A DNA stretch of 64,000 nucleotides from Minisyncoccota bacterium (lineage in GTDB: Bacteria > Patescibacteriota > Minisyncoccia > Phycocordibacterales > UBA9973), in NCBI GenBank assembly GCA_041666045.1, contig JBAYHR010000001.1, positions 119,460 through 183,459 on the forward strand. The letters are read 5' to 3'. Numbering within the stretch: position 1 is the stretch's first letter; the number at the start of each line of letters is the position of its first letter. Positions 622 through 62,775 of this stretch are shown here, piece after piece. The position numbers and the translations under genes are program-made. The notes under the pieces were generated by a model. The model made no database searches. It had not been told where the DNA came from and saw only the letters and a list, made by a program, of their open reading frames with translations.

Positions 622-658
622 AAAAACCTTTCTTACAAAATAAGAAAGGTTTTTTTTG
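622..658 (+). terminator. rho-independent terminator
   Basis: The hairpin ACCTTTCTTA-caaaa-TAAGAAAGGT is followed by a run of 8 T. Confidence 0.6.
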
Positions 659-666
659 TTTTTTTG

Positions 667-751
667 TTGACTTGTCAATTTTATTATGATAAATTAAAAA
701 CAGAAAATTCAAAATATAAACCGAGCAATAGCTCATTTAAAACCTAATAAT
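667..751 (+). promoter_or_regulatory. 85-bp promoter-leader module, family 1 copy 1
   Basis: It starts with the palindrome TTGACTTGTCAA, which contains a -35-like TTGAC(T/A) on both strands, and ends at the ATG at 752. It is about 91% identical to 2248-2332 and contains the small hairpin GAGC-aata-GCTC. Confidence 0.5.
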
Positions 752-1345
752 ATGAAAAACAAAAACACTCCTTTAATTATGGCATTTGTGTTTATAGTAT
801 TCACAATGGCTAGCTTCCCTGTGCAAAAGGTTAATGCACAAGACACTCTTCATTTTGGTCAATCTGTTGATGAATTTGAATTTACAATACCTACCGATTA
901 TGACCATAAAAAACAAATTGATAAATTTACCAAACAGGTAAAAAATTCAAAAGGTACTGATTACTATAATAATGATATTAATAGTAAGAACTTTTCTAAA
1001 ACATCAAATAAACTTATACCAGGTAAAACATACAAAGTTAAAATTTTTCCGATACTAGATACAGTAAAAAGTGAAGATTGCTTAGCTTTCTTGAAACAGC
1101 AAAATGCTTTTTTAGTGGGAGCGCAAGGATTAACACTTTTACAATCTATGAAAAATGATAAATTTCCTTTAGGGACAAGAATTGTTTCTTTTGATGAGAA
1201 GGAATCTTTATGGAAAGATGATGATGGTAATTTTAGAGTTCCATATATACACCACCTGAGTAATGGTAACTGGTGGTTTGCTTTAGGTAATTTTAACTAT
1301 ACCTTAGGTAAGGAACGTTACCTATTATGTTTTTCTGAAAAATAA
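752..1345 (+). CDS. secreted hypothetical protein; its C-terminal roughly 75 aa are homologous to the C-terminus of ORF 54374-54856
   Basis: A 197-aa ORF with an N-terminal signal peptide (MKNKNTPLIMAFVFIVFTMASFPVQKVNA). The C-terminal segment NAFLVGAQGLTLLQ...FPLG..VSFDEKESLWKDDDGNFRVPY aligns with NALFVGAQGLSLVY...FPKD..FSFDKKKALWKAPDGNIMVPF of ORF 54374-54856. Confidence 0.55.
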   Translation: MKNKNTPLIMAFVFIVFTMASFPVQKVNAQDTLHFGQSVDEFEFTIPTDYDHKKQIDKFTKQVKNSKGTDYYNNDINSKNFSKTSNKLIPGKTYKVKIFPILDTVKSEDCLAFLKQQNAFLVGAQGLTLLQSMKNDKFPLGTRIVSFDEKESLWKDDDGNFRVPYIHHLSNGNWWFALGNFNYTLGKERYLLCFSEK

Positions 1346-1361
1346 AATTAATTAATTTAAA

Positions 1362-1396
1362 ATAAAAAAGCCTTTCTTTGCGAAAGGCTTTTTAAA
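1362..1396. terminator. bidirectional rho-independent terminator between convergent genes
   Basis: A 9-bp stem AAAGCCTTT/AAAGGCTTT flanked by an A-run and a T-run. Confidence 0.65.
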
Positions 1397-1399
1397 TAT

Positions 1400-2185
1400 T
1401 TAAAAGATAATTGAAGCTTGTTTTTCTATATTCAACATCTTTTCTTTAAGAACGGGATGGATGATAACATCTCTACTATAATCAATGAATGCCTTTGCTA
1501 AAACTTTAGGCCAACCTATATTTTGGTATTCAAAAGCTTTTTCCATTGCTTGATATTTATCAAGCTGTCTAGCAAGTACAGGAACTTTACCTTTTCCTTT
1601 TTCAAAACGAAGCCAAAGAAAAAATATTTCTTTTCCGTAAGGAGAAGGAAGATCTTTGCAAATTTTAATCATAGCTTTAAATTCAGAATTAAATTTTTCA
1701 GCTTTTAACCTTTCCTTTTCTTTTTGATCATAAGTAACAATAACCTTATCTCCGTCTATGATTTCTGGAAATTCATGAACTTCAAGCATATCCAAAAGTT
1801 CTAAAATTTCATTTACCGAAAATTCGGTTAGACGATCAATCATACTAATAACTAAATTTCTTAAAGAAATAGTATGTTCTTGGTCTGTTTCAGGATTTTT
1901 TACTTCTCTTCTTACCCAACCTTCTCTAGGGATTTCATCTAATGCTTTCCATAAATCTGGAAATAATTTTGCATATTTAAGTTCTAATAAATTAAAATGG
2001 TCCCAAAAAAAAGGAACTGTACCAATGTTTTCCAATTCAACCATCAATAAATCTTCTGATGGATGATGATGTGTTTGTCCAATAGCACAAGGACAAGAAA
2101 TACTATGGTCCAAAACTTTTGTGAACTTTCCTTTATATAAGATATTTCTTTTTTTCCAAATGGATTCCGGCACATTTATAGACAT
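1400..2185 (-). CDS. HD-domain phosphohydrolase, YfbR-like 5'-deoxynucleotidase family, with an N-terminal Cys/His cluster
   Basis: Motifs EHTISLRN ... LEVHEFPEIIDGD match the H...H(D/E)xPE..GD signature of YfbR-type HD hydrolases. The N-terminal segment CPCAIGQTHHH is unusual. Confidence 0.5.
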   Translation of the reverse strand: MSINVPESIWKKRNILYKGKFTKVLDHSISCPCAIGQTHHHPSEDLLMVELENIGTVPFFWDHFNLLELKYAKLFPDLWKALDEIPREGWVRREVKNPETDQEHTISLRNLVISMIDRLTEFSVNEILELLDMLEVHEFPEIIDGDKVIVTYDQKEKERLKAEKFNSEFKAMIKICKDLPSPYGKEIFFLWLRFEKGKGKVPVLARQLDKYQAMEKAFEYQNIGWPKVLAKAFIDYSRDVIIHPVLKEKMLNIEKQASIIF

Positions 2186-2247
2186 AATTACCTCCTTTTT
2201 TATTAAGTTATCAAATATTTATTTATCTTTACATTAACAATTTTTCA

Positions 2248-2332
2248 TTGACTTGTCAATTTTATTATGATAAACTAAAAACAGAAAATTCAGAGTATAA
2301 ACCGAGCATTTGCTCATTTAAAACCCAATAAT
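2248..2332 (+). promoter_or_regulatory. 85-bp promoter-leader module, family 1 copy 2; also a divergent promoter region for 1400-2185
   Basis: It has the same TTGACTTGTCAA start and ends at the ATG at 2333. The hairpin stem GAGC/GCTC is retained while the loop differs (aata versus attt). Confidence 0.5.
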
Positions 2333-2863
2333 ATGAATATTCAAATTTTTAAATCAGAAGTACCTTTAGCAATTTTCTTACAAGAGAGAGAAGCTAAAAA
2401 ATTAGAATTAAACAAAGAAGTTAAAGTTTTTGTTGAAAAATTAGAAGCAGAGATTAAGAAGAACAAAGAAGTTTATCTTTTCTCTGTTTTATTAACTGAA
2501 ACAACTGTTTTTCTTGGAGGTCTATTTAGAGAAAATTTTTTTTCAAAAATAAAATATCCTTCAGTTGGTCTTTCTTTAAGAAAGATTGATATTCTTTATG
2601 AAGAATATGTTGGAGATGATGATTTTATGTATTGCAACAATATTATTGTTAGATTTTGTTTCAATAATCAAGATTTTAATTATTCTTTTTCATTTAATGA
2701 AATGTTGTTTATTGCTGAAGGATTAAGGGTTTCTGAACAAACTATTGGCTATGGTTTTGAAGCACGTTTTGTGGATGAAAAGAAATATATAGAAATTAGA
2801 GACGCTGTTGATAAAATTAAGAAATCTATTTTAGAAGCAGAAAAACCAGTAAGTGTTGAATAA
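2333..2863 (+). CDS. hypothetical protein
   Basis: A 176-aa ORF with no recognisable motif, driven by leader copy 2. Confidence 0.5.
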   Translation: MNIQIFKSEVPLAIFLQEREAKKLELNKEVKVFVEKLEAEIKKNKEVYLFSVLLTETTVFLGGLFRENFFSKIKYPSVGLSLRKIDILYEEYVGDDDFMYCNNIIVRFCFNNQDFNYSFSFNEMLFIAEGLRVSEQTIGYGFEARFVDEKKYIEIRDAVDKIKKSILEAEKPVSVE

Positions 2864-2875
2864 AAAATAAAATTA

Positions 2876-2912
2876 AAAAGCCTTTCTTGTTCAAAGAAAG
2901 GCTTTTTTTTAT
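2876..2912 (+). terminator. rho-independent terminator
   Basis: An 11-bp stem AAGCCTTTCTT/AAGAAAGGCTT followed by a run of 8 T. Confidence 0.65.
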
Positions 2913-3020: not shown

Positions 3021-3716
3021 TTAACCTTCGTTAAAAATTGCGCGAGCTTTTTTAAGATTATAACCAAATTCTTGAGCTGATTGAAATAATGATATTCCTA
3101 AACCCATATAAGCTTCTTTATTGGCTTTTTGTTGAATATTAAAACCCAATACACATGTTGCTTTAACATCAGCTCTTTGAAAAAGAGAGATACCTAAACC
3201 AAATATTGCATTTTTACTAGCTTCTTGGTAGGAGGAAAATCCTAAAACATTTATTGCATTTCTATCACAAGATTGAAATAATGAAATTCCAATAAAAATC
3301 AGTGCATCCTGTTTTGCTTGTTGATAAAAAGAAAATCCAAAAAAATTTACGGTATCTTCTTTTGCTTTCTGAATCAAAGAAAAATTAAAAAGATGTATTG
3401 CATCTTTACCTGCTTTTTGATAAAAAGAAAATCCTGCGATAGATACAGCAGTATTGCCTGCTTTTTGAAGTAATGATAAGTCTACTAGGCAAAATGCATT
3501 TCTACCAGCTTTTTGGAATATTGAAATAAGTGAATAAATACTTCCATCTTCATTTATTCCTCCAAATAAAGAGTAAATATTTTTCCCTATTTTCCAGGGG
3601 TATGAAGCAATAAAAATTAAAATAAGGTATTTAGCTTCTATTTCAAAAAAGAAATAAGCTATAGCAGTAATTAATACAGCTAAACAAAAGTTCAAAAGAT
3701 TTTGTGTCTTTTTCAT
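3021..3716 (-). CDS. membrane-anchored protein made of about 10 tandem 16-residue repeats (consensus roughly G-I-S-L-F-Q-K-A-x-x-N-A-x-x-x-L)
   Basis: A 231-aa ORF with a hydrophobic N-terminal segment followed by repeats such as SLISIFQKAGRNAFCL, SLLQKAGNTAVSIAGF, SFYQKAGKDAIHLFNF, SLIQKAKEDTVNFFGF. The DNA shows a 48-bp periodicity. No known family was recognised. Confidence 0.55.
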   Translation of the reverse strand: MKKTQNLLNFCLAVLITAIAYFFFEIEAKYLILIFIASYPWKIGKNIYSLFGGINEDGSIYSLISIFQKAGRNAFCLVDLSLLQKAGNTAVSIAGFSFYQKAGKDAIHLFNFSLIQKAKEDTVNFFGFSFYQQAKQDALIFIGISLFQSCDRNAINVLGFSSYQEASKNAIFGLGISLFQRADVKATCVLGFNIQQKANKEAYMGLGISLFQSAQEFGYNLKKARAIFNEG

Positions 3717-3900: not shown

Positions 3901-4941
3901 TTATTTTTCAACCGAAAGAATTTTTATAAGTGCAAGTTCTAAGGGAAGTTCTGGGATAAATGCATTCTCTATATTCTCATATGCTCCAAGCAAAATAGAT
4001 AATGCTGGAGAACGTAAGGTCCCCTCTTTGTCTTGTTTTACAAGCGCTTTCAAAAATTCTAAATCTTCTCCTGATAAATCCCCTGACATTTCGCTTTCAA
4101 GTTTTGGAGAATATTTTAGAATTATCGCCATACGGAATTTCTGAATTATAAGTTTCAAGAATAATTTCATATCTAGATTTTCACTTGAAGCTTTTCTTAC
4201 AGACAATATTCCATCTTCTAGATTCTTATTTGCAATAGAAGAAATAAAATCATTTACTAATGTTGTTTTTGGCGCACCAGTAATCTTTTCAATATCTTCT
4301 CTTTTAATTTTTTTAGTTTTAGCAAAATTTAAAACTTTTTGCAAAATACCTTGCGCATCACGGAATGATCCATCTCCAAGAATTGCTATGAGTTCAGCGG
4401 ATCCATTATCTAATTGGAATCCTTCTTTTTCTGCAATATCTAAAACTGTATTTTTTAAAATAATATCTGATGGTTTTTTAAATGTGAAAACTTGGCATCT
4501 AGAAATAATAGTATCTGGAACTTTATGAAGTTCTGTCGTAGCTAAAATAAATATCACATGTTTTGGTGGCTCTTCTAAAGTCTTAAGTAAAGCGCCCCAA
4601 GCATCTTTAGAAAGCATATGTACTTCGTCTATAATGTAAACTTTATATTTTGAATCAAAAGGTAAAACTCGCACTCCATCGCGAAGAGTTCTAATGTCGT
4701 CAATTCCTCTATTTGAAGCTGCATCTATTTCATATAAATCATTTACTGATACGCCTATTTGTTCAGCGAAAATACGCGCTACTGAAGTCTTTCCAGTACC
4801 ACGTGAACCTACGAATAAATACGCATGAGAGACTTTATTTGATAGAACTGAGCTTTCTAGCACTTTCACTATATGCTCTTGTCCTAACACTTCTTTGAAG
4901 CTTTTAGGTCTATATTTTCTATATAATGCTAAGTCGTGCAT
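3901..4941 (-). CDS. dnaX: DNA polymerase III subunit gamma/tau, short form
   Basis: Walker A VGSRGTGKTS and the clamp-loader domains I-III are present. At 346 aa the C-terminal tau domains are absent. Confidence 0.9.
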   Translation of the reverse strand: MHDLALYRKYRPKSFKEVLGQEHIVKVLESSVLSNKVSHAYLFVGSRGTGKTSVARIFAEQIGVSVNDLYEIDAASNRGIDDIRTLRDGVRVLPFDSKYKVYIIDEVHMLSKDAWGALLKTLEEPPKHVIFILATTELHKVPDTIISRCQVFTFKKPSDIILKNTVLDIAEKEGFQLDNGSAELIAILGDGSFRDAQGILQKVLNFAKTKKIKREDIEKITGAPKTTLVNDFISSIANKNLEDGILSVRKASSENLDMKLFLKLIIQKFRMAIILKYSPKLESEMSGDLSGEDLEFLKALVKQDKEGTLRSPALSILLGAYENIENAFIPELPLELALIKILSVEK

Positions 4942-4953
4942 TGGGAGATTATA

Positions 4954-5916
4954 TCAAATTTTATTTAAAAAATCATTAATAATATTTTCAACTTCTTTAG
5001 TGTTTTTTATTTCCATGAGTTTTGCTCGTAATTCTTTCGCTCCTTCAAAACCATTCACATATGCTTTGTAATGTTTTTTTATAATTGCGAGATTTTTATG
5101 TTTACTAAAAAGTTTTTTAAAAAGCCTTGTATGTTCTATAAGAATTTTTAGTTTTTCTTTTATTTCCACATGTCTGACATGTGGGGAAAATAAAAATGGA
5201 TTTCCAAAAATTGCTCTGCCCATCATTACTCCATCACAGCCAGATTCTTTTATTTTCTTTTTTCCATCTTCTAAATTTAAAATATCACCATTACCTATTA
5301 TTAAAGTATTTTTATTTATTTTATTTCGAAATTTAACTATTTGTTTCATTAGATCCCAATGCGCAGGAACATTAGACATTTCTTTGCGAGTTCGCAAGTG
5401 CACAGTAAGGACTGCTAAATCTTGTTTTAAAAGAAAAGGTATCCAAGTATTTATTTCATTTTTATTGTAACCAATACGAGTTTTAACAGAAATTGGAAGT
5501 TTTGACGCGCCTTCTTTCGCAGCTTTAATTATTTTTTCTGCTAATTTAGGATTCTTCATCATAGATGCGCCGGAATTTTGTTTCTCTATTGATCTATCAG
5601 GGCAACCCATATTTATATCAACTCCATCAAAACCAAGCTTGGCGCAGAGCGCTGAAGCATTCTTTATATTTTCAGGTTTAGAACCAAAAATTTGTGCAAT
5701 AATAGGATGTTCATTTTTTAAAAATTTTAAATCAATTAGGAGTTTCTTTTTTCCTGCTGAAGCGAGACCGTCTGCTGATACGAATTCAGTCCAAAAAACA
5801 TCTGGTTTGCCATACTTTGTGATTATTTGTCTAAAAGCACAATCCGTAACATCTGCCATTGGTGCAAGACAAAAAATAGGTTTTTTAAGTTTTTTCCAAA
5901 ATCCTAAATTATTCAT
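4954..5916 (-). CDS. dus: tRNA-dihydrouridine synthase
   Basis: The Dus TIM-barrel N-terminus CLAPMADVTDCAFR and a conserved Cys region are present. The gene ends with a TGA stop. Confidence 0.85.
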   Translation of the reverse strand: MNNLGFWKKLKKPIFCLAPMADVTDCAFRQIITKYGKPDVFWTEFVSADGLASAGKKKLLIDLKFLKNEHPIIAQIFGSKPENIKNASALCAKLGFDGVDINMGCPDRSIEKQNSGASMMKNPKLAEKIIKAAKEGASKLPISVKTRIGYNKNEINTWIPFLLKQDLAVLTVHLRTRKEMSNVPAHWDLMKQIVKFRNKINKNTLIIGNGDILNLEDGKKKIKESGCDGVMMGRAIFGNPFLFSPHVRHVEIKEKLKILIEHTRLFKKLFSKHKNLAIIKKHYKAYVNGFEGAKELRAKLMEIKNTKEVENIINDFLNKI

Positions 5917-6796
5917 TTTTTATTTTCTCTGCAAATTTATAGTAAACTTTATTTCCAAATCTTAAATCAATATATAAAAGTGAAGAATATTTATTTTTAA
6001 AATCTGATTGGAATGGTTCTGTTGTTAATACTGATTGTAAATTTTCTGCAACCTTATTAAAATCAGATGTTGATTTAAATATTATTTTTGGGATATTTAC
6101 ACTATTATTGGGTTTAAGATATATTTCAATATCCCCATCTTCTTTAGTAAGCAAAGAAGATAATTTAATACCCATTTGTTTTAAATTATCAACAAAAGAT
6201 ATTATTTGTGTAAAATTTTCTGGTAAAAAATATGATCCAATAGGATTTTCTGTATCATCTTTAATTTTTCCAAAAAATTTAAAATAAACATTACCAGAGA
6301 AATAAATTGCTTCATCAAAAATATAACCATTTTCGTCCATAAAATAGCATTTATTTTCTTCTGGTGATTCATCTAAAGGAATATCGTTTCCACACCAAGT
6401 GTATTTGCCATTATATTCAGATACTGTTATTTCAAGAGTATTTGTATCTGTTGTGTCTATTTTGATATCTTTTAATCTTTTAAATTTTGAATGCAATTCA
6501 TTTTTTATGGCTCTGTTTGGCAAAAGTATGAAATTGGTTTTAGGGAAAAGACCCAGATAATGCCCATCGATCTTTGAATGTATTATATTTACTATGTCTT
6601 TGGTTTCAACAACTTTATTTTCTAATACGCGAATAGTATTTATATTTATATTTTCCCATCTAGAAAGAAAAATAAGTCCTGTTAAAAAAATAATAAAAAT
6701 AATAACAAAAAAAATAATTTTATTTCTTAAAATTCTACGTTTCTTTCTCTTTAGTTCTTCTAAATGCTTAGAATTTAAAACATTTCGTTTTTGCAT
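5909..6796 (-). CDS. putative FtsQ/DivIB-like cell-division protein
   Basis: A basic cytoplasmic N-terminus and a single TM helix are followed by a POTRA-like segment (INTIRVLENKVVETKDIVNII...LEITVSE). The architecture is typical of FtsQ, but sequence similarity is weak. Confidence 0.4.
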   Translation of the reverse strand: MQKRNVLNSKHLEELKRKKRRILRNKIIFFVIIFIIFLTGLIFLSRWENININTIRVLENKVVETKDIVNIIHSKIDGHYLGLFPKTNFILLPNRAIKNELHSKFKRLKDIKIDTTDTNTLEITVSEYNGKYTWCGNDIPLDESPEENKCYFMDENGYIFDEAIYFSGNVYFKFFGKIKDDTENPIGSYFLPENFTQIISFVDNLKQMGIKLSSLLTKEDGDIEIYLKPNNSVNIPKIIFKSTSDFNKVAENLQSVLTTEPFQSDFKNKYSSLLYIDLRFGNKVYYKFAEKIKNE

Positions 6797-8735: not shown

Positions 8736-8877
8736 AAGATTTTAATTTAAGTTAAACAATTATTTCAAAAATACTATTTGTTTGTATATTATACTATATT
8801 TGACTTAATGTCAACAATGATTTGTATTGAATATTTTAATAATTTAAAATCATAATGACTTGTTATAATTACAAAAT

Positions 8878-10282: not shown

Positions 10283-12544
10283 GTGTGTTATATGATACAT
10301 GCTATGAGACTACTAATCGTTGAGTCCCCTTCAAAAGCAAAGACTATTGAGAAGTATCTTGAGGGCGCGTACACAGTACGTGCTTCTGTTGGGCATATTC
10401 GTGATTTACCAAAATCAAACAAACAAGCCATAGATATAGAAGCTGGATTCGTGCCACATTATGAGATTTCTAAAGGTAAGGAAAAAATTGTACATGAACT
10501 TCAATCTCTTGGAGAAAAAGCAAATGAAATACTTTTAGCGACAGACCCCGACCGTGAAGGAGAAGCTATTGCTTGGCATATAGAAGAATTATTGAAAGAA
10601 GATAAAAAAATTAAAGCTCCTGTGAAGCGTGTAACATTTCATGAAATTACTAAAGACGCTGTTGAAGAAGCATTGAAGCATCCTAGAGATATAGATACAC
10701 CACTACGACGCGCTCAAGAAGCTCGTAGAGTTCTTGATAGACTTGTAGGTTATGATCTTTCAGGATTAATTTGGAAAAAAGTTCGTTATGGACTTTCTGC
10801 GGGACGTGTTCAATCCCCTGCGCTTCGCATAATAATGGAACGTGAAAGAGAAATTCGAGCTTTCGTACCGGAAAAATTCTGGAGGATTTTTGGACTTTTT
10901 GAAACCTCCCACCACCCCGCTCCGACTCAAGGTCGTAGCACCCCTCCTCAGGCAGGATGGGAAAAAATTACTTTAGAATGTTCAGAAGAACCTCGTGATA
11001 AAAATTTAGTAGATAAAATTCTTCATGATGGAAAAAATGGAACTTGGAAAGTTAAAGGAGTTAAAGAATCTGAACAAAAAAGATCTCCTCGTGCACCGTT
11101 CACAACTTCAACATTACAACAAACAGCAAGTTCACGTTTGGGATATTCTCCTTCTCGTACAATGCAAATAGCTCAAAAACTTTATGAAGCTGGGCATATC
11201 ACATATATGAGAACGGATAGTACAAATCTATCAAAAGTTGCTCAAGCGCAAATACTTTCTTTAATTGATAAAGAATACGGCACAGAATATTCAGAAGCCA
11301 GAATATATAAAACTAAATCAAAGAATGCTCAAGAAGCACACGAAGCTATTCGTCCTACGCATGTAGAAAATTTCGAAGCTGGGACAGATGAGCAAACAAG
11401 ACTTTATAGACTTATTTGGGAACGCACAGTGTCTTCTCAAATGACTGATGCGAAGTTGTTAAAAACAAAAATTTCTGGAGTTATTGAAGGACATGAAGAA
11501 TATCCAGATTTTGTGGCAAATGGTTCAAGACTTCTTTTCCCTGGATGGCTCAAAGTTGACGCTGACGCTCGTGGAGAAGATGTGGAACTTCCAGAAGTTA
11601 AAGAAGGAGAAAAATTAAAATTGATTGATCTAACTAGTGAAGAAAAATTTACAGAACCACCAAATAGATATTCTGAAGCAGGACTCGTGAAAGAACTTGA
11701 AGCTCGCGGAATAGGCAGACCTTCAACTTATGCTTCAATAATGAAGACTATCGAAGAGCGAGGTTATGTAAACAAAGAAGGGAGAACTTTATTCCCTACT
11801 GATGTGGGTGAAGTTGTTTCTGATTTTCTTGAAAAGAATTTTGCAAATTATATTTCAGATACATTCACTGCTGAAATGGAAGATGAACTCGATGAAATTT
11901 CTCGCGGTGAAAGAGAATATGAAAAAACATTAAAAGATTTTTATATTCCTTTTTCAAAAGAAGTTAAATCAAAAGAAAAATTAGAAAAAGCTACAAATCT
12001 AGGAGAAGCACCTGAGAATATAAAATGTCCTAAATGTGGAAGTTCTATGATAATAAAACTTTCTAAAAATGGTAAATTCTATTCATGTTCTCGATATCCT
12101 GATTGTGACGGAGCATTGAAACTTGATGGTATAGAAATGGCTGGACCGAAAGAAACTGGTGAAGCTTGTCCTCTTTGTGGAGAAAAGAAAGGAGGAAAAT
12201 TAGTTGTGCGTGAGGGAAAATTTGGATCTTTTATATCTTGTTCTCGTTATCCAAAATGTAAATTCATTAAAAAAGATGAAGCAGAAGAAGCTAAAAAAAG
12301 AACTGGTGTTAAATGTCCAGAATGTAAAACTGGTGAAATTAGTGAACGTCGTGGTAGATTTGGAATATTCTATTCTTGTTCAAATTATCCAGATTGTAAA
12401 TTTAATATGAAATCTAAACCCACAGGAAGAATTTGTAATCTTTGTGGATCTTTAATGATGGAAGGCACAAAAACGATACCAGAGCGTTGTTCAAATAAAA
12501 CTTGTCCTAATCACAATCCTCATAAATTAAATAAAATGGAATAA
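10283..12544 (+). CDS. topA: DNA topoisomerase I with multiple C-terminal zinc-ribbon repeats
   Basis: A TOPRIM N-terminus (LLIVESPSKAKTI), the active-site region and repeated C-x2-C...C-x2-C zinc ribbons are present. The ORF begins at GTG 10283; an alternative ATG lies at 10304. Confidence 0.95.
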   Translation: MCYMIHAMRLLIVESPSKAKTIEKYLEGAYTVRASVGHIRDLPKSNKQAIDIEAGFVPHYEISKGKEKIVHELQSLGEKANEILLATDPDREGEAIAWHIEELLKEDKKIKAPVKRVTFHEITKDAVEEALKHPRDIDTPLRRAQEARRVLDRLVGYDLSGLIWKKVRYGLSAGRVQSPALRIIMEREREIRAFVPEKFWRIFGLFETSHHPAPTQGRSTPPQAGWEKITLECSEEPRDKNLVDKILHDGKNGTWKVKGVKESEQKRSPRAPFTTSTLQQTASSRLGYSPSRTMQIAQKLYEAGHITYMRTDSTNLSKVAQAQILSLIDKEYGTEYSEARIYKTKSKNAQEAHEAIRPTHVENFEAGTDEQTRLYRLIWERTVSSQMTDAKLLKTKISGVIEGHEEYPDFVANGSRLLFPGWLKVDADARGEDVELPEVKEGEKLKLIDLTSEEKFTEPPNRYSEAGLVKELEARGIGRPSTYASIMKTIEERGYVNKEGRTLFPTDVGEVVSDFLEKNFANYISDTFTAEMEDELDEISRGEREYEKTLKDFYIPFSKEVKSKEKLEKATNLGEAPENIKCPKCGSSMIIKLSKNGKFYSCSRYPDCDGALKLDGIEMAGPKETGEACPLCGEKKGGKLVVREGKFGSFISCSRYPKCKFIKKDEAEEAKKRTGVKCPECKTGEISERRGRFGIFYSCSNYPDCKFNMKSKPTGRICNLCGSLMMEGTKTIPERCSNKTCPNHNPHKLNKME

Positions 12545-12591: not shown

Positions 12592-13152
12592 TTATCTTTT
12601 AATCAATGCATCAATTTTGTTTGAAACTTTATTGAGTTTCAGATTAAGTGATTTGTTTGATTTCCTTAATTCTTTAATTTCTTTATTTTGTTTCTTTAAT
12701 TCTCTTAAGATATTAACAGAGATAGGGTCTTCAACTGGCTCAGTTATAACCATTAAGTATAGTTGTTTACTATAATATATTCCACTATCTTTTTCTATTG
12801 TTTCATAAACTCCTACTATTGAATAGTTAACTACCTTAACTTTTTTTTGTTTTTCAAACTCATTCAAAATTAAATTTATCTTTATAAGATATTTATCTGA
12901 AGATACATATGGAATACCATACGTTCCTTCGCTGCTGTGCCAGTAATTTTCCATCCCAGTAGGAATTTTACTAAAATTTCCGTTAGTTTCTACGCCAGAA
13001 AGATCAATTATAATTTTTCCAGCTTTATCTGTTTTTAGTAATTCTTCTTCGTTTTGTTCCTGTAATTCTTGTACTGTTGGACCACAACTTTGAAGAAACA
13101 CTACACTACAAATACTTATTACGAGTATTTGTAAAAAATTAATTTTTTTCAT
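12592..13152 (-). CDS. hypothetical lipoprotein
   Basis: A signal peptide with a lipobox-like LQSC, then a 186-aa body. Confidence 0.5.
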   Translation of the reverse strand: MKKINFLQILVISICSVVFLQSCGPTVQELQEQNEEELLKTDKAGKIIIDLSGVETNGNFSKIPTGMENYWHSSEGTYGIPYVSSDKYLIKINLILNEFEKQKKVKVVNYSIVGVYETIEKDSGIYYSKQLYLMVITEPVEDPISVNILRELKKQNKEIKELRKSNKSLNLKLNKVSNKIDALIKR

Positions 13153-13296
13153 AAGTATTAAATTTTTAAAGAACCAAATGGTTCTGGTTTTGAAACTTAA
13201 AAATCATAAAATTTCTGTAAATTCTAGTTAGAGTTTACTATATATTACCTATCTTGTCAATTAAACAAAAAAATAAAGTCAACAAATATTTTTAAA

Positions 13297-45034: not shown

Positions 45035-45115
45035 TAATTTATCTTGACATTTATCGTTTTAAAATGTATCCTGAGAGTAAATCTGCTCTTAAAAATAACC
45101 TTTAAAATATCAAAT
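45035..45115 (+). promoter_or_regulatory. promoter-leader module, family 2 copy 1
   Basis: TAATTTATCTTGACATTT...GAGAGTAAATCTGCTCTTAAAAATAACC...ATCAAAT ends at the ATG at 45116. It is about 90% identical to 46493-46574 and contains a -35 TTGACA. Confidence 0.5.
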
Positions 45116-45734: not shown

Positions 45735-45772
45735 CAAAAAAATGCCTATTATTTAAAATAGGCATTTTTTAT
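45735..45772. terminator. rho-independent terminator (9-bp stem ATGCCTATT/AATAGGCAT followed by T6)
   Basis: Directly after the stop of gene 45116-45733. Confidence 0.6.
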
Positions 45773-46453
45773 TTCTTTTTTAAATACCTCAGAGGCCTTG
45801 CCTCTGGGATTATAAGTAATCCAATCTAAAATTTCTCTTTCAAATTCATTCTTGTTGGGGAAATAGTCTGGAAACTTTTCAATAGAAAGTATTTTTGATT
45901 GCAATCTATGTTCCCCTAAATATTCAGGGTAACTTGAGTATTTATATTCTGCGAGATACTTTTTTGTTTCTTTGACATTTTTAATACCAATTTCTTTCCA
46001 ATCTTTGTCTATCAATTTTACAGGATTAAGATGCATGTAAGAAAAAACATATTTTAAATATCTATCATTATATAAATGTTCGGCTTTAAATTTTCCTTCA
46101 AACAAGCTTCCTGTTCTTTTATGTATCGTATTAAAATACATCACATATGCAGTAGAAAATTTTTGCATAAACTTTGATATTCCATCTTCCTCTTTTTCTT
46201 TAATCAAAAGATGGAAATGATTCGGCATTAAACAAAATGTGCCAATATAAACAAATGATTCTTCTCGATCAAAATCATATTCATCTTCTACGATATCTCT
46301 AATTACAAAATTCCTTTTAGAATTGCATAAATATAATAATTTAAGAAAATGAAAATAATCTCCTTTGTTTAAAAAAATTTTTTGTTTACTATTGCCACGG
46401 TTATATATGTGGTAATACTCATCTACAGCAAATGATATTTTTCTTATACTCAT
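45749..46453 (-). CDS. tnpA: IS200-like Y1 transposase (HUH motif HFHLL)
   Basis: YHIYNRGN...CLMPNHFHLLI...Y..MHLNPVK. The last 12 or so codons run past the left-end hairpin into the neighbouring terminator, so the native C-terminus probably lies inside the element. Confidence 0.8.
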   Translation of the reverse strand: MSIRKISFAVDEYYHIYNRGNSKQKIFLNKGDYFHFLKLLYLCNSKRNFVIRDIVEDEYDFDREESFVYIGTFCLMPNHFHLLIKEKEEDGISKFMQKFSTAYVMYFNTIHKRTGSLFEGKFKAEHLYNDRYLKYVFSYMHLNPVKLIDKDWKEIGIKNVKETKKYLAEYKYSSYPEYLGEHRLQSKILSIEKFPDYFPNKNEFEREILDWITYNPRGKASEVFKKEIKNAYFK

Positions 46454-46492: not shown

Positions 46493-46574
46493 TAATTTAT
46501 CTTGACATTTGTTATTTTAAAATGTATCTTGAGAGTAAATCTGCTCTTAAAAAATAACCTAAAAATATCAAATT
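46493..46574 (+). promoter_or_regulatory. promoter-leader module, family 2 copy 2
   Basis: It begins 4 bp after the IS right end and ends at the ATG at 46575. Confidence 0.5.
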
Positions 46575-53634: not shown

Positions 53635-53731
53635 CAAAATAACTTTGACTTGTTAATGATTTCGTGATAATCTAAAAATAGAAATTTTCTAGTATAAACT
53701 GAACTAATTAGTTCATTAAAAACATAAAATT

Positions 53732-54277
53732 ATGAAAACCTTAAACATTATTATTTCTTGTATTTTTGCAATTATTTATTCAACAATAATAATTGCATTA
53801 CTAGACAAATATTTTGCATCTGCAATACAAATAATAGGAATTGACTTTAAAATAATCTTTTTTTCGTTATTTGTATTTTTCCTAATTATTTTAATCCCAG
53901 TGGTTTTAATTACGGTAAAATTAGCAAAAAGAAATTATACTGGATTACCCGCTAAACCAAAAAATGGAGAAATTTTTGAGATAAATGAAGTATTAAGTAT
54001 TGTTACTTATGATGACAAAAATATAGCTAGTCTTCAATGTTTTCTTGTAAAAGCTCAAAAAATAAAAAACTTTAATGACACCCAATATGAGACATTCAAT
54101 GAATATGAATCATTGGATAAAAGTAAAATATATGAATTTTGGTTTGAAAAAAGATATATTAATGAAGGAAAAATAATTGCACCTGAAGGTCAAGAAGTGT
54201 GGATATCACAAAAAAATAAATTCTTTAACGTAAATATTTTAGAACCACACAAAATACAAAAAAGACTCTGCTCTTAA
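53732..54277 (+). CDS. hypothetical membrane protein
   Basis: A 181-aa ORF with two N-terminal TM helices. Confidence 0.45.
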   Translation: MKTLNIIISCIFAIIYSTIIIALLDKYFASAIQIIGIDFKIIFFSLFVFFLIILIPVVLITVKLAKRNYTGLPAKPKNGEIFEINEVLSIVTYDDKNIASLQCFLVKAQKIKNFNDTQYETFNEYESLDKSKIYEFWFEKRYINEGKIIAPEGQEVWISQKNKFFNVNILEPHKIQKRLCS

Positions 54278-54373: not shown

Positions 54374-54856
54374 TTATTTTTTAAAGAAGCAAATAATGCA
54401 ATACCCATGAGGATATAAATTATCCCTAAATTTGGATAAGCAAAATTCAAAATTGCCATAAAAATGCGCAGCCATAAATGGAACCATAATATTGCCATCA
54501 GGAGCTTTCCATAATGCTTTCTTTTTATCAAAAGAAAATATCCATTTATCTTTAGGAAATTTTTCTTTTTCATATCCATAAACCAAACTCAACCCTTGCG
54601 CTCCAACAAATAATGCATTTCTCCTTTTCATAAAAGACTTTAATTTTTTGATATCACAAATCCATTCTCTGTTTTTAACTTCATTTAGATTATCATTGTT
54701 ATGTTTATTTGATTTACTATTATCTCTATAAAACGTTTTAAACAAACCTTTCGTGGCCTCAATATCATAAGCCTTATATCCTATTTTATTTAATTGATGA
54801 CATATAGTGGTTTTTCCTGAACCAGCTATTCCAGTTATAAAAATTGATTTTTTCAT
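54374..54856 (-). CDS. P-loop (Walker A GIAGSGKT) protein whose C-terminal domain is shared with secreted ORF 752-1345
   Basis: The N-terminus KKSIFITGIAGSGKTTI is kinase- or AAA-like. The C-terminal roughly 75 aa are homologous to the C-terminus of ORF 752-1345. Confidence 0.5.
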   Translation of the reverse strand: MKKSIFITGIAGSGKTTICHQLNKIGYKAYDIEATKGLFKTFYRDNSKSNKHNNDNLNEVKNREWICDIKKLKSFMKRRNALFVGAQGLSLVYGYEKEKFPKDKWIFSFDKKKALWKAPDGNIMVPFMAAHFYGNFEFCLSKFRDNLYPHGYCIICFFKK

Positions 54857-59610: not shown

Positions 59611-59722
59611 TCAGTAATTATAGCAAAATATGAAAGAATAAAAATTTGACTTATAAACAATTTCATGCTAAATTAACAAAAAGCTCACCAATGTAAATAA
59701 CATTCTTTAAAAACATAATATT

Positions 59723-60373
59723 ATGGAAAAAATAAAAATTTTACTAGTAGATACAATAATATCTATTAGATCTGGTCTAATCACTTTTTTAGACCAAAAA
59801 CATTTTGAAGTTATAACTTCAAATAAAAAAAATTTTTTAAATTCTTATGAAAATAAAAAACCAAATATTGTCATTTTTGAATTACTGTCATTAGAAAATG
59901 ACAAGGAAAAAATATCTACAATAAGAAACGATATAATAACGTTTCCTGAAATGAAATTCATAGTTATTTCAATAATAAATGATAGTAAATTAGGCAAATA
60001 CATATTGGAAATTGGCGGAAGAGTTGTCTCTAAAAGAGATGGTTTTGATAAATTATTAGAAGTAATTGTAGAAGTATTAAAAAATAATAATCACTTACCA
60101 CAACAATTAGATAAAATTCCAAATGAAAAATCTTTTTCTTTTGATTCTAAAAAAAATCGAAAAACCTATACAAGTGAAATTAAAAAAGAAATTTTATGTT
60201 TCATTTGCAATGGACTAAATTCAAAAGAAATTGGTGAAAAAGTTCATAAATCACCAAAAACAATCGATAATATTCGTTCAGAAATGCTCGAAGAAACAAA
60301 AAGTAAAAATATGGCTCAATTGGCTGTTTGGTCTATAAAAACTGGAATTGTAAAATTAGATGATTTAGACTAA
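59723..60373 (+). CDS. LuxR/FixJ-family HTH regulator with an atypical receiver-like N-terminal domain
   Basis: The C-terminal HTH reads LNSKEIGEKVHKSPKTIDNIRSEMLEETKSKNMAQLAVW. The receiver-like N-terminus has E where the phospho-acceptor Asp is expected (IVIFELLSL). Confidence 0.55.
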   Translation: MEKIKILLVDTIISIRSGLITFLDQKHFEVITSNKKNFLNSYENKKPNIVIFELLSLENDKEKISTIRNDIITFPEMKFIVISIINDSKLGKYILEIGGRVVSKRDGFDKLLEVIVEVLKNNNHLPQQLDKIPNEKSFSFDSKKNRKTYTSEIKKEILCFICNGLNSKEIGEKVHKSPKTIDNIRSEMLEETKSKNMAQLAVWSIKTGIVKLDDLD

Positions 60374-60506
60374 ATAATTTAAAAAAACATAAAAAAGCGA
60401 TTAAAATATTAATCGCTTTTTAATTTTGCTTGACAAATAAGGTCAAATATAGTAGTATATAATTAAATATTAATAATTAATTTGTACATTTAAATAAACA
60501 GAAAAA

Positions 60507-61359: not shown

Positions 61360-62655
61360 TTATTCTTTATTCAACCATTCTTTATCTTGCCGTACCAATA
61401 ACTTATCTTTATTTTCTTTATCCTTAAGGATAGTCGCCACAATACGCTCCATACGCATACCTTGAGATCCTTTCACTAAAATAAGATCATTCTTTTTAAT
61501 AAAAGTTTCTAGAAACTCCCCTGTTTCCTTGGAATCTAAAAATTCAAAAATATCTTTTTCTTTCATTCCAGCCTCTATTGCTCCTTCTTTTATCTTCTTT
61601 GCTCTGTTGCCCACAACAACAAGTATTTTCACATTTTCTTCTGCAATTTTACCTATATTTTTATGTGCATCTTCTGTGTGCTTACCAAGCTCTAACATAT
61701 CTCCCAAAACTGCTATTTTTCTCCCTTTTAATTTTATATCTGATAAAGTTTTTAATGCTGATTCGCAAGCAAAAGGAGAAGAATTATAAGTATCATCTAT
61801 AATCAACGAATCTTTTATACCATCCAGTAAACACATTCTGCCTGGAGGTACTTCGTATCGCTTTAATGCCTCAACGGCATTCAACATATTAAATTTCAAA
61901 CCAAAAGCTAATGCTAAAGATGCTAAAGATGCATAAACATGATTTCTTCCAAATACTCCTTCTATAATTACGGGCAAACTTTTTCCATCTTCATCTACTC
62001 TAAAAACAATACCTTGAAGCTTCCCGTCTTCTGTATAAAAAATATTCTCCTCAGAGCCGAGCACATCTGCTCCTTCTTTAAATCCATAAGTCATCACGCG
62101 ATTCTTCGTTTTCCCTTTCATGCTAGCTACAGCTTCATCATCAAAATTCAAAACCAAAAGTCCATCTTTTTTTAATGTTTTTATGAGTCCGCTTTTTTCT
62201 TTTATTAAATGTTCTCGTGAATTAAAAAATTCAATATGCACTGGAGTGTCTCCTATTGTTGTAAATATAACTGCATCAGATTTCACCCAAGAAGCTGTTT
62301 TTTTCATATCACCTGGCTTACCAACACCAACTTCAAGAACAAGCCATTGGGGATATTTATGAGGCAAAATAAAAAGCAAAAATCCTTTTAAAATATTTTT
62401 CAACCAAATATAAGGATCATCCCAACCATTTGGACACCCTAAAATAGTAAGGGGTAACCCTATTTCACTGTTATAACTTTTTTCACTTTTGCGAACATAA
62501 GCAAATTGTGAAATTATTGCGTAAACTGCATCTTTTGTAGAAGTTTTGCCAACAGATCCAGTGATAGTAATAACTTTTGGTTTATATTTCCAAAGTACAA
62601 GCTGTGATTCTATTTTTAAAATTAATGATATTATATTTTTAAAAGTTTCTTTCAT
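61360..62655 (-). CDS. murF: UDP-N-acetylmuramoyl-tripeptide--D-alanyl-D-alanine ligase
   Basis: The Mur ligase P-loop ITGSVGKTSTKD and the central and C-terminal domains are present. Confidence 0.9.
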   Translation of the reverse strand: MKETFKNIISLILKIESQLVLWKYKPKVITITGSVGKTSTKDAVYAIISQFAYVRKSEKSYNSEIGLPLTILGCPNGWDDPYIWLKNILKGFLLFILPHKYPQWLVLEVGVGKPGDMKKTASWVKSDAVIFTTIGDTPVHIEFFNSREHLIKEKSGLIKTLKKDGLLVLNFDDEAVASMKGKTKNRVMTYGFKEGADVLGSEENIFYTEDGKLQGIVFRVDEDGKSLPVIIEGVFGRNHVYASLASLALAFGLKFNMLNAVEALKRYEVPPGRMCLLDGIKDSLIIDDTYNSSPFACESALKTLSDIKLKGRKIAVLGDMLELGKHTEDAHKNIGKIAEENVKILVVVGNRAKKIKEGAIEAGMKEKDIFEFLDSKETGEFLETFIKKNDLILVKGSQGMRMERIVATILKDKENKDKLLVRQDKEWLNKE

Positions 62656-62775
62656 CCCGTACGAAATAGGAAATCTTTAGATTTCCGTAGTTAACTTATT
62701 TATAATAATTTCTATATACTTCATAATTTATTTATCCCAAGAAACATAATTTAACTTCTTAATTTCGTACGGGAT
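62654..62775. repeat. inverted-repeat element, copy B
   Basis: 14-bp perfect terminal inverted repeats ATCCCGTACGAAAT at 62654-62667 and ATTTCGTACGGGAT at 62762-62775. The internal perfect palindrome GGAAATCT-TT-AGATTTCC lies at 62669-62686, and the left arm overlaps the murF start codon. Confidence 0.7.

What the first reader, a model, noticed from the sequence alone, without database searches (positions are those of the whole stretch)
667..2332. Duplicated 85-bp promoter-leader module (family 1) upstream of two unrelated hypothetical genes flanking an HD-hydrolase gene
Segments 667-751 and 2248-2332 are about 91% identical. Each starts with the palindrome TTGACTTGTCAA, which carries -35-like hexamers on both strands, and each ends exactly at an ATG (752 and 2333). 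The substitutions cluster. One cluster changes the loop of a small hairpin (GAGC-aata-GCTC becomes GAGC-attt-GCTC) while keeping the stem. The downstream proteins are a secreted 197-aa protein and a 176-aa protein, which are not detectably related. This suggests a portable promoter/5'-UTR cassette or a recombination hotspot, and the palindromic -35 could double as an operator.
Basis: seen in the sequence. Interest (0 to 1): 0.5.

Follow-up and report, generated by a model that had tools for sequence, protein, structure and literature searches.

The report
Reused promoter-leader module in a Paceibacterium
The repeat is a real promoter plus untranslated leader that this tiny-genome bacterium and two relatives have placed in front of several unrelated small genes, which is a documented way bacteria rewire gene expression and not a new kind of element.

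Summary
Segments 667-751 and 2248-2332 are 79/85 identical, and 660-756 vs 2241-2337 are 89/97 identical. Similarity starts just before a -35 box and stops at ATGAA.

The module is an extended -10 sigma-70 promoter (TTGACT-17-TGnTAAAyT) plus a ~50-nt leader with no Shine-Dalgarno sequence and a 4-6 bp hairpin.

It is not a simple pair. A third copy, 73-74% identical, lies at 53645-53736 before an unrelated membrane-protein gene.

Related copies occur in two other Paceibacteria genomes:
- before a 39%-identical homologue of the 176-aa gene;
- before the orthologue of the 181-aa gene;
- before another unrelated gene.

Copy B looks ancestral. Its "palindrome" is two opposed -35 boxes of a bidirectional promoter that also drives the HD gene, and this core is conserved in relatives. 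Copy A looks like a recent partial copy that replaced the native promoter of the 197-aa gene. The nearest orthologue (70% identity) has a different leader.

The pair meets the published operational definition of "putative mobile promoters". No transposon features or Rfam family were found. Evidence for hairpin covariation is suggestive but weak. A genome-wide copy count could not be obtained.

Verdict: new member of a known kind, moderate interest.

The parts
660..756 (+). Copy A of the promoter-leader module. Features: -35 box TTGACT at 667-672; TG at 687-688; -10 box TAAATT at 690-695; hairpin GAGC-AATA-GCTC at 723-734; ATG at 752. It carries only the rightward half of the promoter.
   Evidence: The repeat is shown. 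The promoter scan is. The hairpin folds at -5.3 kcal/mol with z = -6.1. The leftward -10 box is absent, read directly from the sequence.
752..1345 (+). 197-aa protein with a predicted N-terminal signal peptide. It belongs to a family that is the target of diversity-generating retroelements (DGRs) in relatives.
   Evidence: One search gives the ORF, and one search finds 135 homologues. In relatives L042 and L044 the family gene has variable-repeat/template-repeat (VR/TR) pairs with mismatches at TR adenines, next to bAvd and reverse transcriptase genes.
1400..2185 (-). HD-domain hydrolase gene with a strong Shine-Dalgarno sequence. It is transcribed divergently from copy B.
   Evidence: Pfam HD_3, E = 2.5e-15.
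2231..2337 (+). Copy B, a bidirectional promoter plus rightward leader. Rightward: -35 box at 2248-2253; TG at 2268-2269; -10 box TAAACT at 2271-2276; hairpin at 2304-2315; ATG at 2333. Leftward, on the minus strand: -35 box TTGACA at 2259->2254; TGt; -10 box TAATGT at 2236->2231.
   Evidence: The core is 85% identical to L026 over 62 nt, and copy B is 78% identical to L035 copy E over 123 nt.
2333..2863 (+). 176-aa protein. It belongs to a small family restricted to Paceibacteria. The predicted fold is a long helix, a PH-like beta sandwich and a second helix. Function is unknown.
   Evidence: The AlphaFold2 model has pLDDT 93.6. There is no significant PDB match.
53642..53736 (+). Copy C, directly after tRNA-Glu. 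Features: -35 box at 53645-53650; -10 box TAATCT at 53668-53673; hairpin UGAACU-AAUU-AGUUCA at 53700-53715; ATG at 53732. It is 73-74% identical to copies A and B.
   Evidence: nhmmer E = 4e-20, though copy C was part of that profile. blastn gives 74-75% over 92-93 nt.
53732..54277 (+). 181-aa membrane protein, unrelated to the 176-aa and 197-aa proteins. One orthologue is known, at 47% identity.
622..654 (.). Bidirectional terminator hairpin T0, upstream of copy A. It is related in sequence to T1 and T2.
1365..1393 (.). Terminator T1 (AAAAAGCCTTTC...GAAAGGCTTTTT), between the 197-aa gene and the HD gene.
2875..2907 (.). Terminator T2, after the 176-aa gene. It is near-identical to the terminator that follows the 197-aa orthologue in L026.
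13150..13193 (-). Possible partial relative. The leader of a lipoprotein gene has the same hairpin (AGAACC/GGUUCU) + UUAAAAA + AUG layout, but a different promoter.
   Evidence: The covariance model scores it at 27.2 bits, E about 0.06, which is borderline.

Best explanation
The 85-97 bp repeat is a complete expression signal. It contains a sigma-70-type extended -10 promoter (TTGACT, 17 nt, TGnTAAAyT) and a ~50-nt A/U-rich leader. The leader has no Shine-Dalgarno sequence and carries a short GC-clamped hairpin about 17 nt before the AUG.

It is a reused ('propagated') promoter-leader.

- **Copy B is the ancestral version.** It is the native promoter and leader of the 176-aa gene family. Here it is one half of a compact bidirectional promoter. 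Its two -35 boxes face each other (TTGAC-TT-GTCAA), and the other half drives the HD gene.
- **Copy A is recent.** It is a partial DNA copy, 7% diverged, of the rightward half only. It sits 1.6 kb away and replaced the native promoter and leader of the 197-aa gene.
- **Copy C is older.** It sits in front of the 181-aa gene and was already present before this genome and a relative diverged.

The expected effect is that these unrelated, lineage-specific genes are transcribed and translated from equivalent signals.

Shown: the repeat, its anatomy by consensus, its presence before non-homologous genes in three genomes, and the different leader in the nearest 197-aa orthologue.

Inferred: promoter activity, transcription start sites, the direction of copying (B to A), and any role of the hairpin (mRNA stability or translation).
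For: **Anatomy**
- Both copies score as TTGACT-17-TAAAyT with a TG extension.
- Similarity begins about 5 nt before the -35 box and ends at ATGAA.
- The hairpin folds at -5.3 kcal/mol, z about -6.

**Non-homologous downstream genes**
-. The upstream coding sequences are also unrelated.

**More copies**
- Copy C.
- Copy E, L035 6063-6157, before an unrelated 219-aa gene: nhmmer E = 5e-14.
- Copy C', before the 181-aa orthologue.
- Copy F, L052 3917-4002, before a 39%-identical homologue of the 176-aa protein: E = 2e-9.

**Copy B is ancestral**
- The leftward -10 region plus opposed -35 boxes are 85% identical over 62 nt at the syntenic position in L026. They are also present in L035 copy E.
- Four-fold synonymous sites between the window and L026 are saturated, 23/60 identical.

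**Copy A is derived**
- The 70%-identical orthologue in L026 has a different promoter and leader.
- That leader resembles those of more distant family members: TTGACA...TAyACT followed by an immediate hairpin.
- None of six further family loci has the module.

**Fit to a known kind**
- The pair meets the operational definition of putative mobile promoters: more than 50 nt at 80% identity or above, with flanking coding sequences not alignable. That paper reports doublets at about 92% identity (PMC3488235).

**Hairpin**
- The four core pairs are intact in all five full copies. There is one G-C to A-U double change (copy C) and one A-U to G-U change (copy F), while loop sequences differ.
- Hairpins at the same position but with different stems occur in L055 and L049.
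Against: - There are no expression data. Promoter, transcription start and hairpin function are all predictions from consensus.
- Hairpin covariation is statistically weak: 94 of 500 shuffles reach the observed score. The hairpin is absent in copy C' and in L045.
- The compensatory change could come from a single template-switch mutation in a quasi-palindrome.
- The direction B to A rests on one close relative (L026) plus promoter-consensus resemblance.
- The terminators flanking both cassettes are also related. A larger cassette-level event is therefore not excluded.
- The genome-wide copy number is unknown. The source contig is not in the searchable metagenome collection, and my genome-contig scan used a wrong spacer.
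Confidence: 0.65

Rival explanations
1. Regulon signature. The module stays similar because it carries specific binding sites for a dedicated regulator. These could be a DNA operator at the inverted repeats, or an RNA hairpin bound by a protein. The genes would then form one co-regulated set. Similarity would reflect selection for shared control, not just copying of a generic promoter.
For: - Conservation covers the promoter spacer, the initial transcribed region and the leader, not only the -35 and -10 boxes.
- The module is more conserved between genomes than the proteins it precedes: 78-80% vs 67.5% nucleotide identity and 39-47% amino-acid identity.
- The hairpin region is a perfect DNA palindrome in copies C and E.
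- TTGAC-N-GTCAA motifs are enriched: 4 found vs 0.5 expected.
Against: - The -35 inverted repeat is degenerate in copies C and C' and absent in copy F.
- Its right arm is explained by a leftward promoter at copy B.
- The spacing of the hairpin arms varies (4, 5 or 6 nt) and the G-U change in copy F breaks the DNA palindrome. Both argue against a dimeric DNA operator.
- No regulator gene is linked to the module.
- This reading still needs copying to explain 93% identity between copies A and B.
Confidence: 0.2
2. Cassette exchange, or remnants of a larger duplication. The whole unit of promoter-leader, ORF and terminator was duplicated. The ORF between the conserved 5' and 3' flanks was later swapped by recombination through those flanks.
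For: - Three related terminators (622-654, 1365-1393, 2875-2907) occur only around these two cassettes in 64 kb.
- The terminator after the 176-aa gene is 79% identical over 82 nt to the one after the L026 orthologue of the 197-aa gene.
- The 176-aa family sits in different genomic contexts as a self-contained unit with its own divergent promoter and bidirectional terminator.
Against: - The terminators are short, low-complexity palindromes, so convergence is plausible.
- Copies C, E and F do not share these terminators.
- The 197 gene - terminator - minus-strand gene - promoter order is syntenic with L026, so the 197-aa gene was not newly inserted.
Confidence: 0.1
3. A non-autonomous mobile element (MITE-like) that carries an outward-facing promoter.
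For: - The same about 90-bp sequence lies before unrelated genes in several genomes.
- A second promoter-leader doublet in the window flanks an IS200-like transposase gene.
Against: - No terminal inverted repeats are common to the copies.
- Homology boundaries differ between pairs.
- Only 3 copies were found in about 80 kb.
- The ends coincide with functional limits, the -35 box and the ATG.
- There were no hits in viral contigs.
Confidence: 0.04
4. An assembly artefact of the metagenome-assembled genome.
For: Repeats can be created by mis-assembly.
Against: - The two copies differ at 8 of 97 positions and lie in different unique contexts.
- Copy B with its flanking genes is reproduced in independent assemblies of two other sequencing runs (L031, L032).
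Confidence: 0.01

Closest known systems
Putative mobile promoters / promoter propagation (Matus-Garcia, Nijveen & van Passel 2012, PMC3488235; PMC3575422)
   Same: These are homologous upstream regions of 50-100 nt at 80% identity or above, placed before non-homologous coding sequences. Most families are doublets at about 92% identity. In their example, conservation runs from about -5 to -120 relative to the start codon. Some families are shared between genomes. The A/B pair fits all of these points.
   Different: - Here the donor appears to be half of a bidirectional promoter.
- The family can be traced to a likely native gene, the 176-aa family.
- The host is a Paceibacterium (candidate phyla radiation); I did not check whether that survey covered this group.
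- Two such families occur within 64 kb. This looks denser than the paper's totals imply (>4000 families in 1043 genomes, at most 28 in one genome). The sample is n = 2.
Regulatory switching by replacement of intergenic regions (Oren et al. 2014 PNAS, recalled from memory and not read here; the concept is used in the Piggy paper, PMC5890482, listed)
   Same: A gene keeps its coding sequence while its promoter region is replaced by an unrelated one. The 197-aa gene in the window versus L026 shows this.
   Different: As I recall it, that work concerns exchange between strains by homologous recombination through flanking genes. Here the donor is a paralogous promoter 1.6 kb away in the same genome.
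Shared upstream promoter/leader regions of surface-protein gene families, such as the Borrelia 'upstream homology box' and Mycoplasma vsp/vlp 5' regions (from my own knowledge, not checked here)
   Same: Highly similar promoter and 5' regions lie in front of divergent genes for secreted or surface proteins.
   Different: In those systems the conserved block usually extends into the signal peptide, and the genes are paralogues involved in antigenic variation. Here conservation stops at ATGAA and the proteins are unrelated.
MITEs with outward-facing promoters, such as Neisseria Correia elements (from my own knowledge)
   Same: A short repeated sequence that can supply a promoter to the adjacent gene.
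   Different: Correia elements have terminal inverted repeats, target duplications and many copies. None of these was found here.

Membership tests
Putative mobile promoter (PMP), operational definition of PMC3488235 | Two upstream regions, within about 150 nt of the start codon, align over more than 50 nt at 80% identity or above. | tested here: met
   97 nt at 92%; 85 nt at 93%. The definition was read.
Putative mobile promoter (PMP) | The downstream coding sequences do not align. | tested here: met
   BLASTP best E = 14. Copy C's gene is also unrelated to both.
Putative mobile promoter (PMP) | The upstream coding sequences do not align. | tested here: met
   The 88-aa gene vs the HD gene gives E = 31.
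Putative mobile promoter (PMP) | The sequence really acts as a promoter and was really mobilised. | not testable with these tools
   Only consensus matches are available, together with the comparative inference that the L026 orthologue has a different leader.
MITE / IS-derived repeat | Terminal inverted repeats and fixed ends shared by all copies. | tested here: not met
   Inverted repeats near the ends are low-complexity and specific to each copy. Homology limits differ between pairs.
MITE / IS-derived repeat | Many copies per genome, including positions not upstream of genes. | tested here: inconclusive
   There are 3 copies in about 80 kb of a 265-kb contig, all directly upstream of genes.
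Known cis-regulatory RNA (any Rfam family, such as a riboswitch or leader) | A match to a curated covariance model. | tested here: not met
   The window has only tRNAs at gathering score. The best sub-threshold hit on the module is 17 bits against a gathering score of 56.
Structured RNA element (hairpin under selection) | Base pairs maintained through compensatory changes, beyond what relatedness alone explains. | tested here: inconclusive
   The four core pairs are 100% paired in 5 copies, with 1 double change and 1 G-U change. However, 94 of 500 shuffles reach the observed score. Different stems at the same position in L055 and L049 are supportive but were not aligned rigorously.
Transcription-factor operator at the -35 inverted repeat | The inverted repeat is conserved, with fixed spacing, in all copies. 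| tested here: not met
   The sequences are TTGACTTGTCAA (A, B, E), TTGACTTGTTAA (C), TTGACTTATCAA (C') and TTGACTCATTTA (F).

The most novel reading that the evidence does not exclude
The module belongs to a self-contained expression cassette that changes genomic position. The cassette consists of a bidirectional promoter, the 176-aa PH-like protein gene and a bidirectional terminator. It even sits antisense inside the ribosomal-protein operon in two relatives.

In this reading, Paceibacteria repeatedly seed the cassette's promoter and its 'hairpin + UUAAAAAC + about 12 nt + AUG' leader onto neighbouring lineage-specific genes. The leader would then be an uncharacterised signal for translation or mRNA stability that works without a Shine-Dalgarno sequence. 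Promoter propagation would be an unusually frequent way of wiring new genes in these reduced genomes.
Probability: 0.15. Interest if true: 0.55.

Novelty: new member of a known kind. Interest (0 to 1): 0.33.

Why it matters
The case shows how an uncultured, reduced-genome bacterium gives expression signals to lineage-specific genes of unknown function. It copies an existing promoter and leader instead of evolving a new one.

The module also offers a concrete candidate promoter and 5' UTR for Paceibacteria, where I know of no experimentally defined promoters. It marks a small set of genes that are probably expressed alike, including a homologue of a DGR-diversified protein and two unknown proteins.

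The general phenomenon is already documented, so the finding adds an example and not a principle.

Tried and rejected
1. **Genome-contig scan.** It used TTGACTTGTCAA-N9-TGATAAA, but the true spacer is 8 nt. The pattern does not match the window itself. Its 25 hits are chance promoters and the result says nothing about the module.
2. **Metagenome-contig scan.** The pattern was first validated on the window. It returned only two unrelated consensus promoters and not the source contig. No genome-wide count was possible.
3. **Viral contigs.** 0 hits.
4. **Rfam.** Nothing at gathering or relaxed thresholds.
5. **Pfam, PHROGs and PADLOC on the flanking proteins.** Only the HD_3 hit was significant.
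6. **Candidate fourth copy at 59645-59727.** Not significant (nhmmer E about 0.5). The similarity is promoter consensus plus an A/T-rich start region.
7. **Hidden paralogy between the 176-aa and 181-aa proteins.** BLASTP E = 0.64; hhalign probability 0.4%. Rejected.
8. **The 197-aa family loci of more distant relatives (L039-L044).** No module.
9. **Fold search of the 176-aa model.** Only weak PH-domain-like matches (E >= 0.04). The afdb50 library was unavailable.
10. **Extension of the source contig.** I viewed 7.7 kb to the left and 8.6 kb to the right. No further copies.
Full report
**Source.** The window is part of a 265,619-bp contig of a Candidatus Paceibacterota MAG (locus tags WC264_*; JGI 3300037810). 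GC content is 30%.

**Observation.** Segments 667-751 and 2248-2332 are 79/85 identical. The repeat extends to 660-756 vs 2241-2337, 89/97 identical. Sub-blocks of 27-30 nt are never found in shuffled sequence. Similarity begins about 5 nt before TTGAC and ends at ATGAA. Beyond that the two ORFs have no detectable similarity. The coding sequences upstream of the two copies are also unrelated.

**Anatomy.**
- Each copy reads TTGACT, 17 nt, TAAAyT, with TG one base before the -10 hexamer. This is an extended -10 sigma-70 promoter.
- About 50 nt of A/U-rich leader follow, with no Shine-Dalgarno sequence. Only about 4 of 69 genes in the window have one.
- The leader contains the hairpin GAGC-NNNN-GCTC. 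It folds at -5.3 kcal/mol, z about -6 against shuffles.
- UUUAAAACC and the AUG lie 17 nt further on.
- No Rfam family matches.

**The "palindrome".** TTGAC-TT-GTCAA is two opposed -35 boxes. At copy B the minus-strand TTGACA is followed after 17 nt by TGtTAATGT and then by the HD-domain gene. Copy A has neither a leftward -10 box nor a leftward gene. The leftward -10 region plus the opposed -35 boxes are conserved at the syntenic position in the closest available relative. L026 has the order 197-aa orthologue, terminator, minus-strand ORF, promoter, and this core is 85% identical over 62 nt. The core is also present in L035. Four-fold synonymous sites between the window and L026 are saturated, 23/60 identical, so the core appears to be under selection. 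Opposed TTGAC...GTCAA boxes are enriched in the window (4 found vs 0.5 expected). One other case lies between divergent genes. A bidirectional promoter explains the palindrome better than an operator does.

**More copies.** Listing all upstream regions revealed a third copy at 53645-53736, immediately after tRNA-Glu and before an unrelated 181-aa membrane protein.
- It is 73-74% identical to copies A and B from -35 to ATG.
- It matches two degenerate patterns that have zero chance expectation.
- Its hairpin is UGAACU-AAUU-AGUUCA, a G-C to A-U double change relative to A and B.

The only homologue of the 181-aa protein (P0123, 47% identity, a Minisyncoccia MAG) has a recognisably related promoter and early leader, copy C'. 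This copy lacks the 14 nt that form the hairpin. The same contig carries a full-length copy E, 1.1 kb downstream at L035 6063-6157.
- nhmmer E = 5e-14.
- It is 78-80% identical to copies A and B.
- It includes copy B's leftward -10 region.
- It drives an unrelated 219-aa gene rightward and an unrelated 147-aa gene leftward.

**The 176-aa gene is not an orphan.** A word-indexed search found only the protein itself. A full HMMER scan found about 25 remote homologues of 160-190 aa.
- One homologue (39% identity, L052) is preceded by module copy F (E = 2e-9), with hairpin GGGC/GCUC. The A-U to G-U change is compatible with RNA pairing only.
- Another (L055) has TTGACA-N17-TAATCT, a GAACC/GGUUC hairpin and UUAAAAC before its AUG.
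- L049 has a different stem (AAUCAA/UUGAUU) in the same place.
- L045 has opposed -35 boxes (TTGACTTTGTCAA) but no hairpin.

The module is therefore most simply the native promoter and leader of this gene family. The family sits in different contexts in different genomes. In L052 and L055 it lies antisense inside the ribosomal-protein operon. In L052 it has its own leftward promoter and a bidirectional terminator. Its AlphaFold2 model is confident (pLDDT 93.6). The fold is a helix, a PH-like beta sandwich and a second helix, and there is no significant PDB match.

**The 197-aa gene.**
- It belongs to a large Paceibacteria family (135 hits).
- In relatives the family is the variable target of diversity-generating retroelements. 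The evidence is 120-nt VR/TR pairs with mismatches at TR adenines (17/19 and 11/11), next to bAvd and reverse transcriptase genes.
- Its closest orthologue (70% identity, L026) has a different promoter and leader. That leader resembles those of more distant family members.
- None of six further family loci has the module.

Copy A therefore looks derived. It is a recent (7% diverged) partial copy of copy B's rightward half that replaced the native signals.

**Classification.** The A/B pair meets every operational criterion of "putative mobile promoters" (PMC3488235). These are more than 50 nt at 80% identity or above, with non-alignable upstream and downstream coding sequences. It also matches that paper's remark that doublets are about 92% identical. 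A second such doublet lies at 45035-45115 / 46493-46573, so the window has two PMP-grade families among 44 intergenic regions. Transposon-like features are absent. There are no shared terminal inverted repeats. Homology limits differ between pairs. Only three copies occur in about 80 kb, and none in viral contigs.

**Hairpin.** In the five full copies all four core pairs are always formed. There is one compensatory change and one wobble change, and loop sequence and length vary. Even so, 94 of 500 column shuffles reach the observed covariation. A covariance model of hairpin to AUG also picks up the leader of a lipoprotein gene at 13150-13193 at a borderline score (27 bits). The hairpin is likely functional at the RNA level, but this is not demonstrated. 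It is also dispensable in copy C' and L045.

**Limits.**
- My genome-contig scan had a spacer error and is void.
- The metagenome collection does not contain the source contig, so genome-wide copy number is unknown.
- The terminators around both cassettes are related. A cassette-level event cannot be excluded.
- All functional statements rest on consensus and comparison.

**Verdict.** This is a real, functional-looking promoter-leader that has been reused before unrelated genes. It is a new example of a known phenomenon.

Noticed in passing
window 45035-45115 and 46493-46573, with 45749-46453(-): A second promoter-leader doublet (89-91% identical, running from just before the -35 box to the ATG) lies before two unrelated ORFs. 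Between the copies is an IS200-like Y1 transposase gene bounded by CAGAGGC...GCCTCTG hairpins. The leader has a hairpin at the predicted 5' end (z = -4.1).
   Followed up: partly
window 24497-24550 and 62635-62688 (minus strand): A shared 36-nt leader, ACGGAAAUCUAAAGAUUUyCUAUyUC..ACGGGAUG, abuts the start codon of two unrelated genes (23966-24517 and the Mur ligase gene 61360-62655). It contains a 7-bp hairpin, and a second helix reaches the AUG. No Rfam match at gathering score.
   Followed up: partly
L042 10534-10653 / 11004-11123; L044 1212-1332 / 1676-1796: Homologues of the 197-aa protein are targets of diversity-generating retroelements. The evidence is VR/TR pairs with mismatches at TR adenines (11/11 and 17/19), next to bAvd and reverse transcriptase genes. 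No TR or reverse transcriptase lies next to the window's own copy.
   Followed up: partly
window 54374-54856 (-): A 160-aa protein combines a P-loop (AAA_18) N-terminus with a C-terminal domain about 40% identical to the C-terminal (VR-bearing) domain of the 197-aa family. It is convergent with the gene driven by module copy C.
   Followed up: no
L052 3771-4576; L055 518-1627: Homologues of the 176-aa gene sit on the opposite strand inside the ribosomal-protein operon, between S14/S8 and L5. In L052 the unit has its own leftward promoter (TTGACT-17-TAGTAT) and a bidirectional terminator. It looks like a self-contained inserted cassette.
   Followed up: partly
L026 1213-2910: A serine-recombinase gene (502 aa) lies beside tRNA-Gln, and a GC-rich stretch of about 110 nt next to the tRNA recurs in inverted orientation at the contig end, so the gene appears flanked by inverted repeats. 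The tRNA-Gln is inverted relative to the window. The region next to the module is rearrangement-prone.
   Followed up: no
window 3021-3716 (-): A 231-aa protein with one N-terminal membrane segment, built from 48-nt (16-aa) tandem repeats. No family match.
   Followed up: no
window 8800-8814 and 60430-60446: Other opposed -35 boxes (TTGAC-N5-GTCAA and TTGAC-N7-GTCAA) occur at promoters. The first lies between divergent genes. Their downstream -10 regions resemble each other (GTCAAATATAGTA..TATAAT).
   Followed up: no
whole window: Only about 4 of 69 genes have a Shine-Dalgarno-like motif. Many monocistronic small genes instead have a leader hairpin followed by UUAAAAA about 12-20 nt before the AUG.
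   Followed up: partly
L045 ~4925-4960 and ~6045-6080: Another Paceibacteria genome has its own duplicated bidirectional promoter core (CACCTTACAACC-N4-CTTGACTTTGTCAAA). The copies are 1.1 kb apart and lie between two divergent pairs of unrelated genes. The arrangement is the same as in the window.
   Followed up: partly
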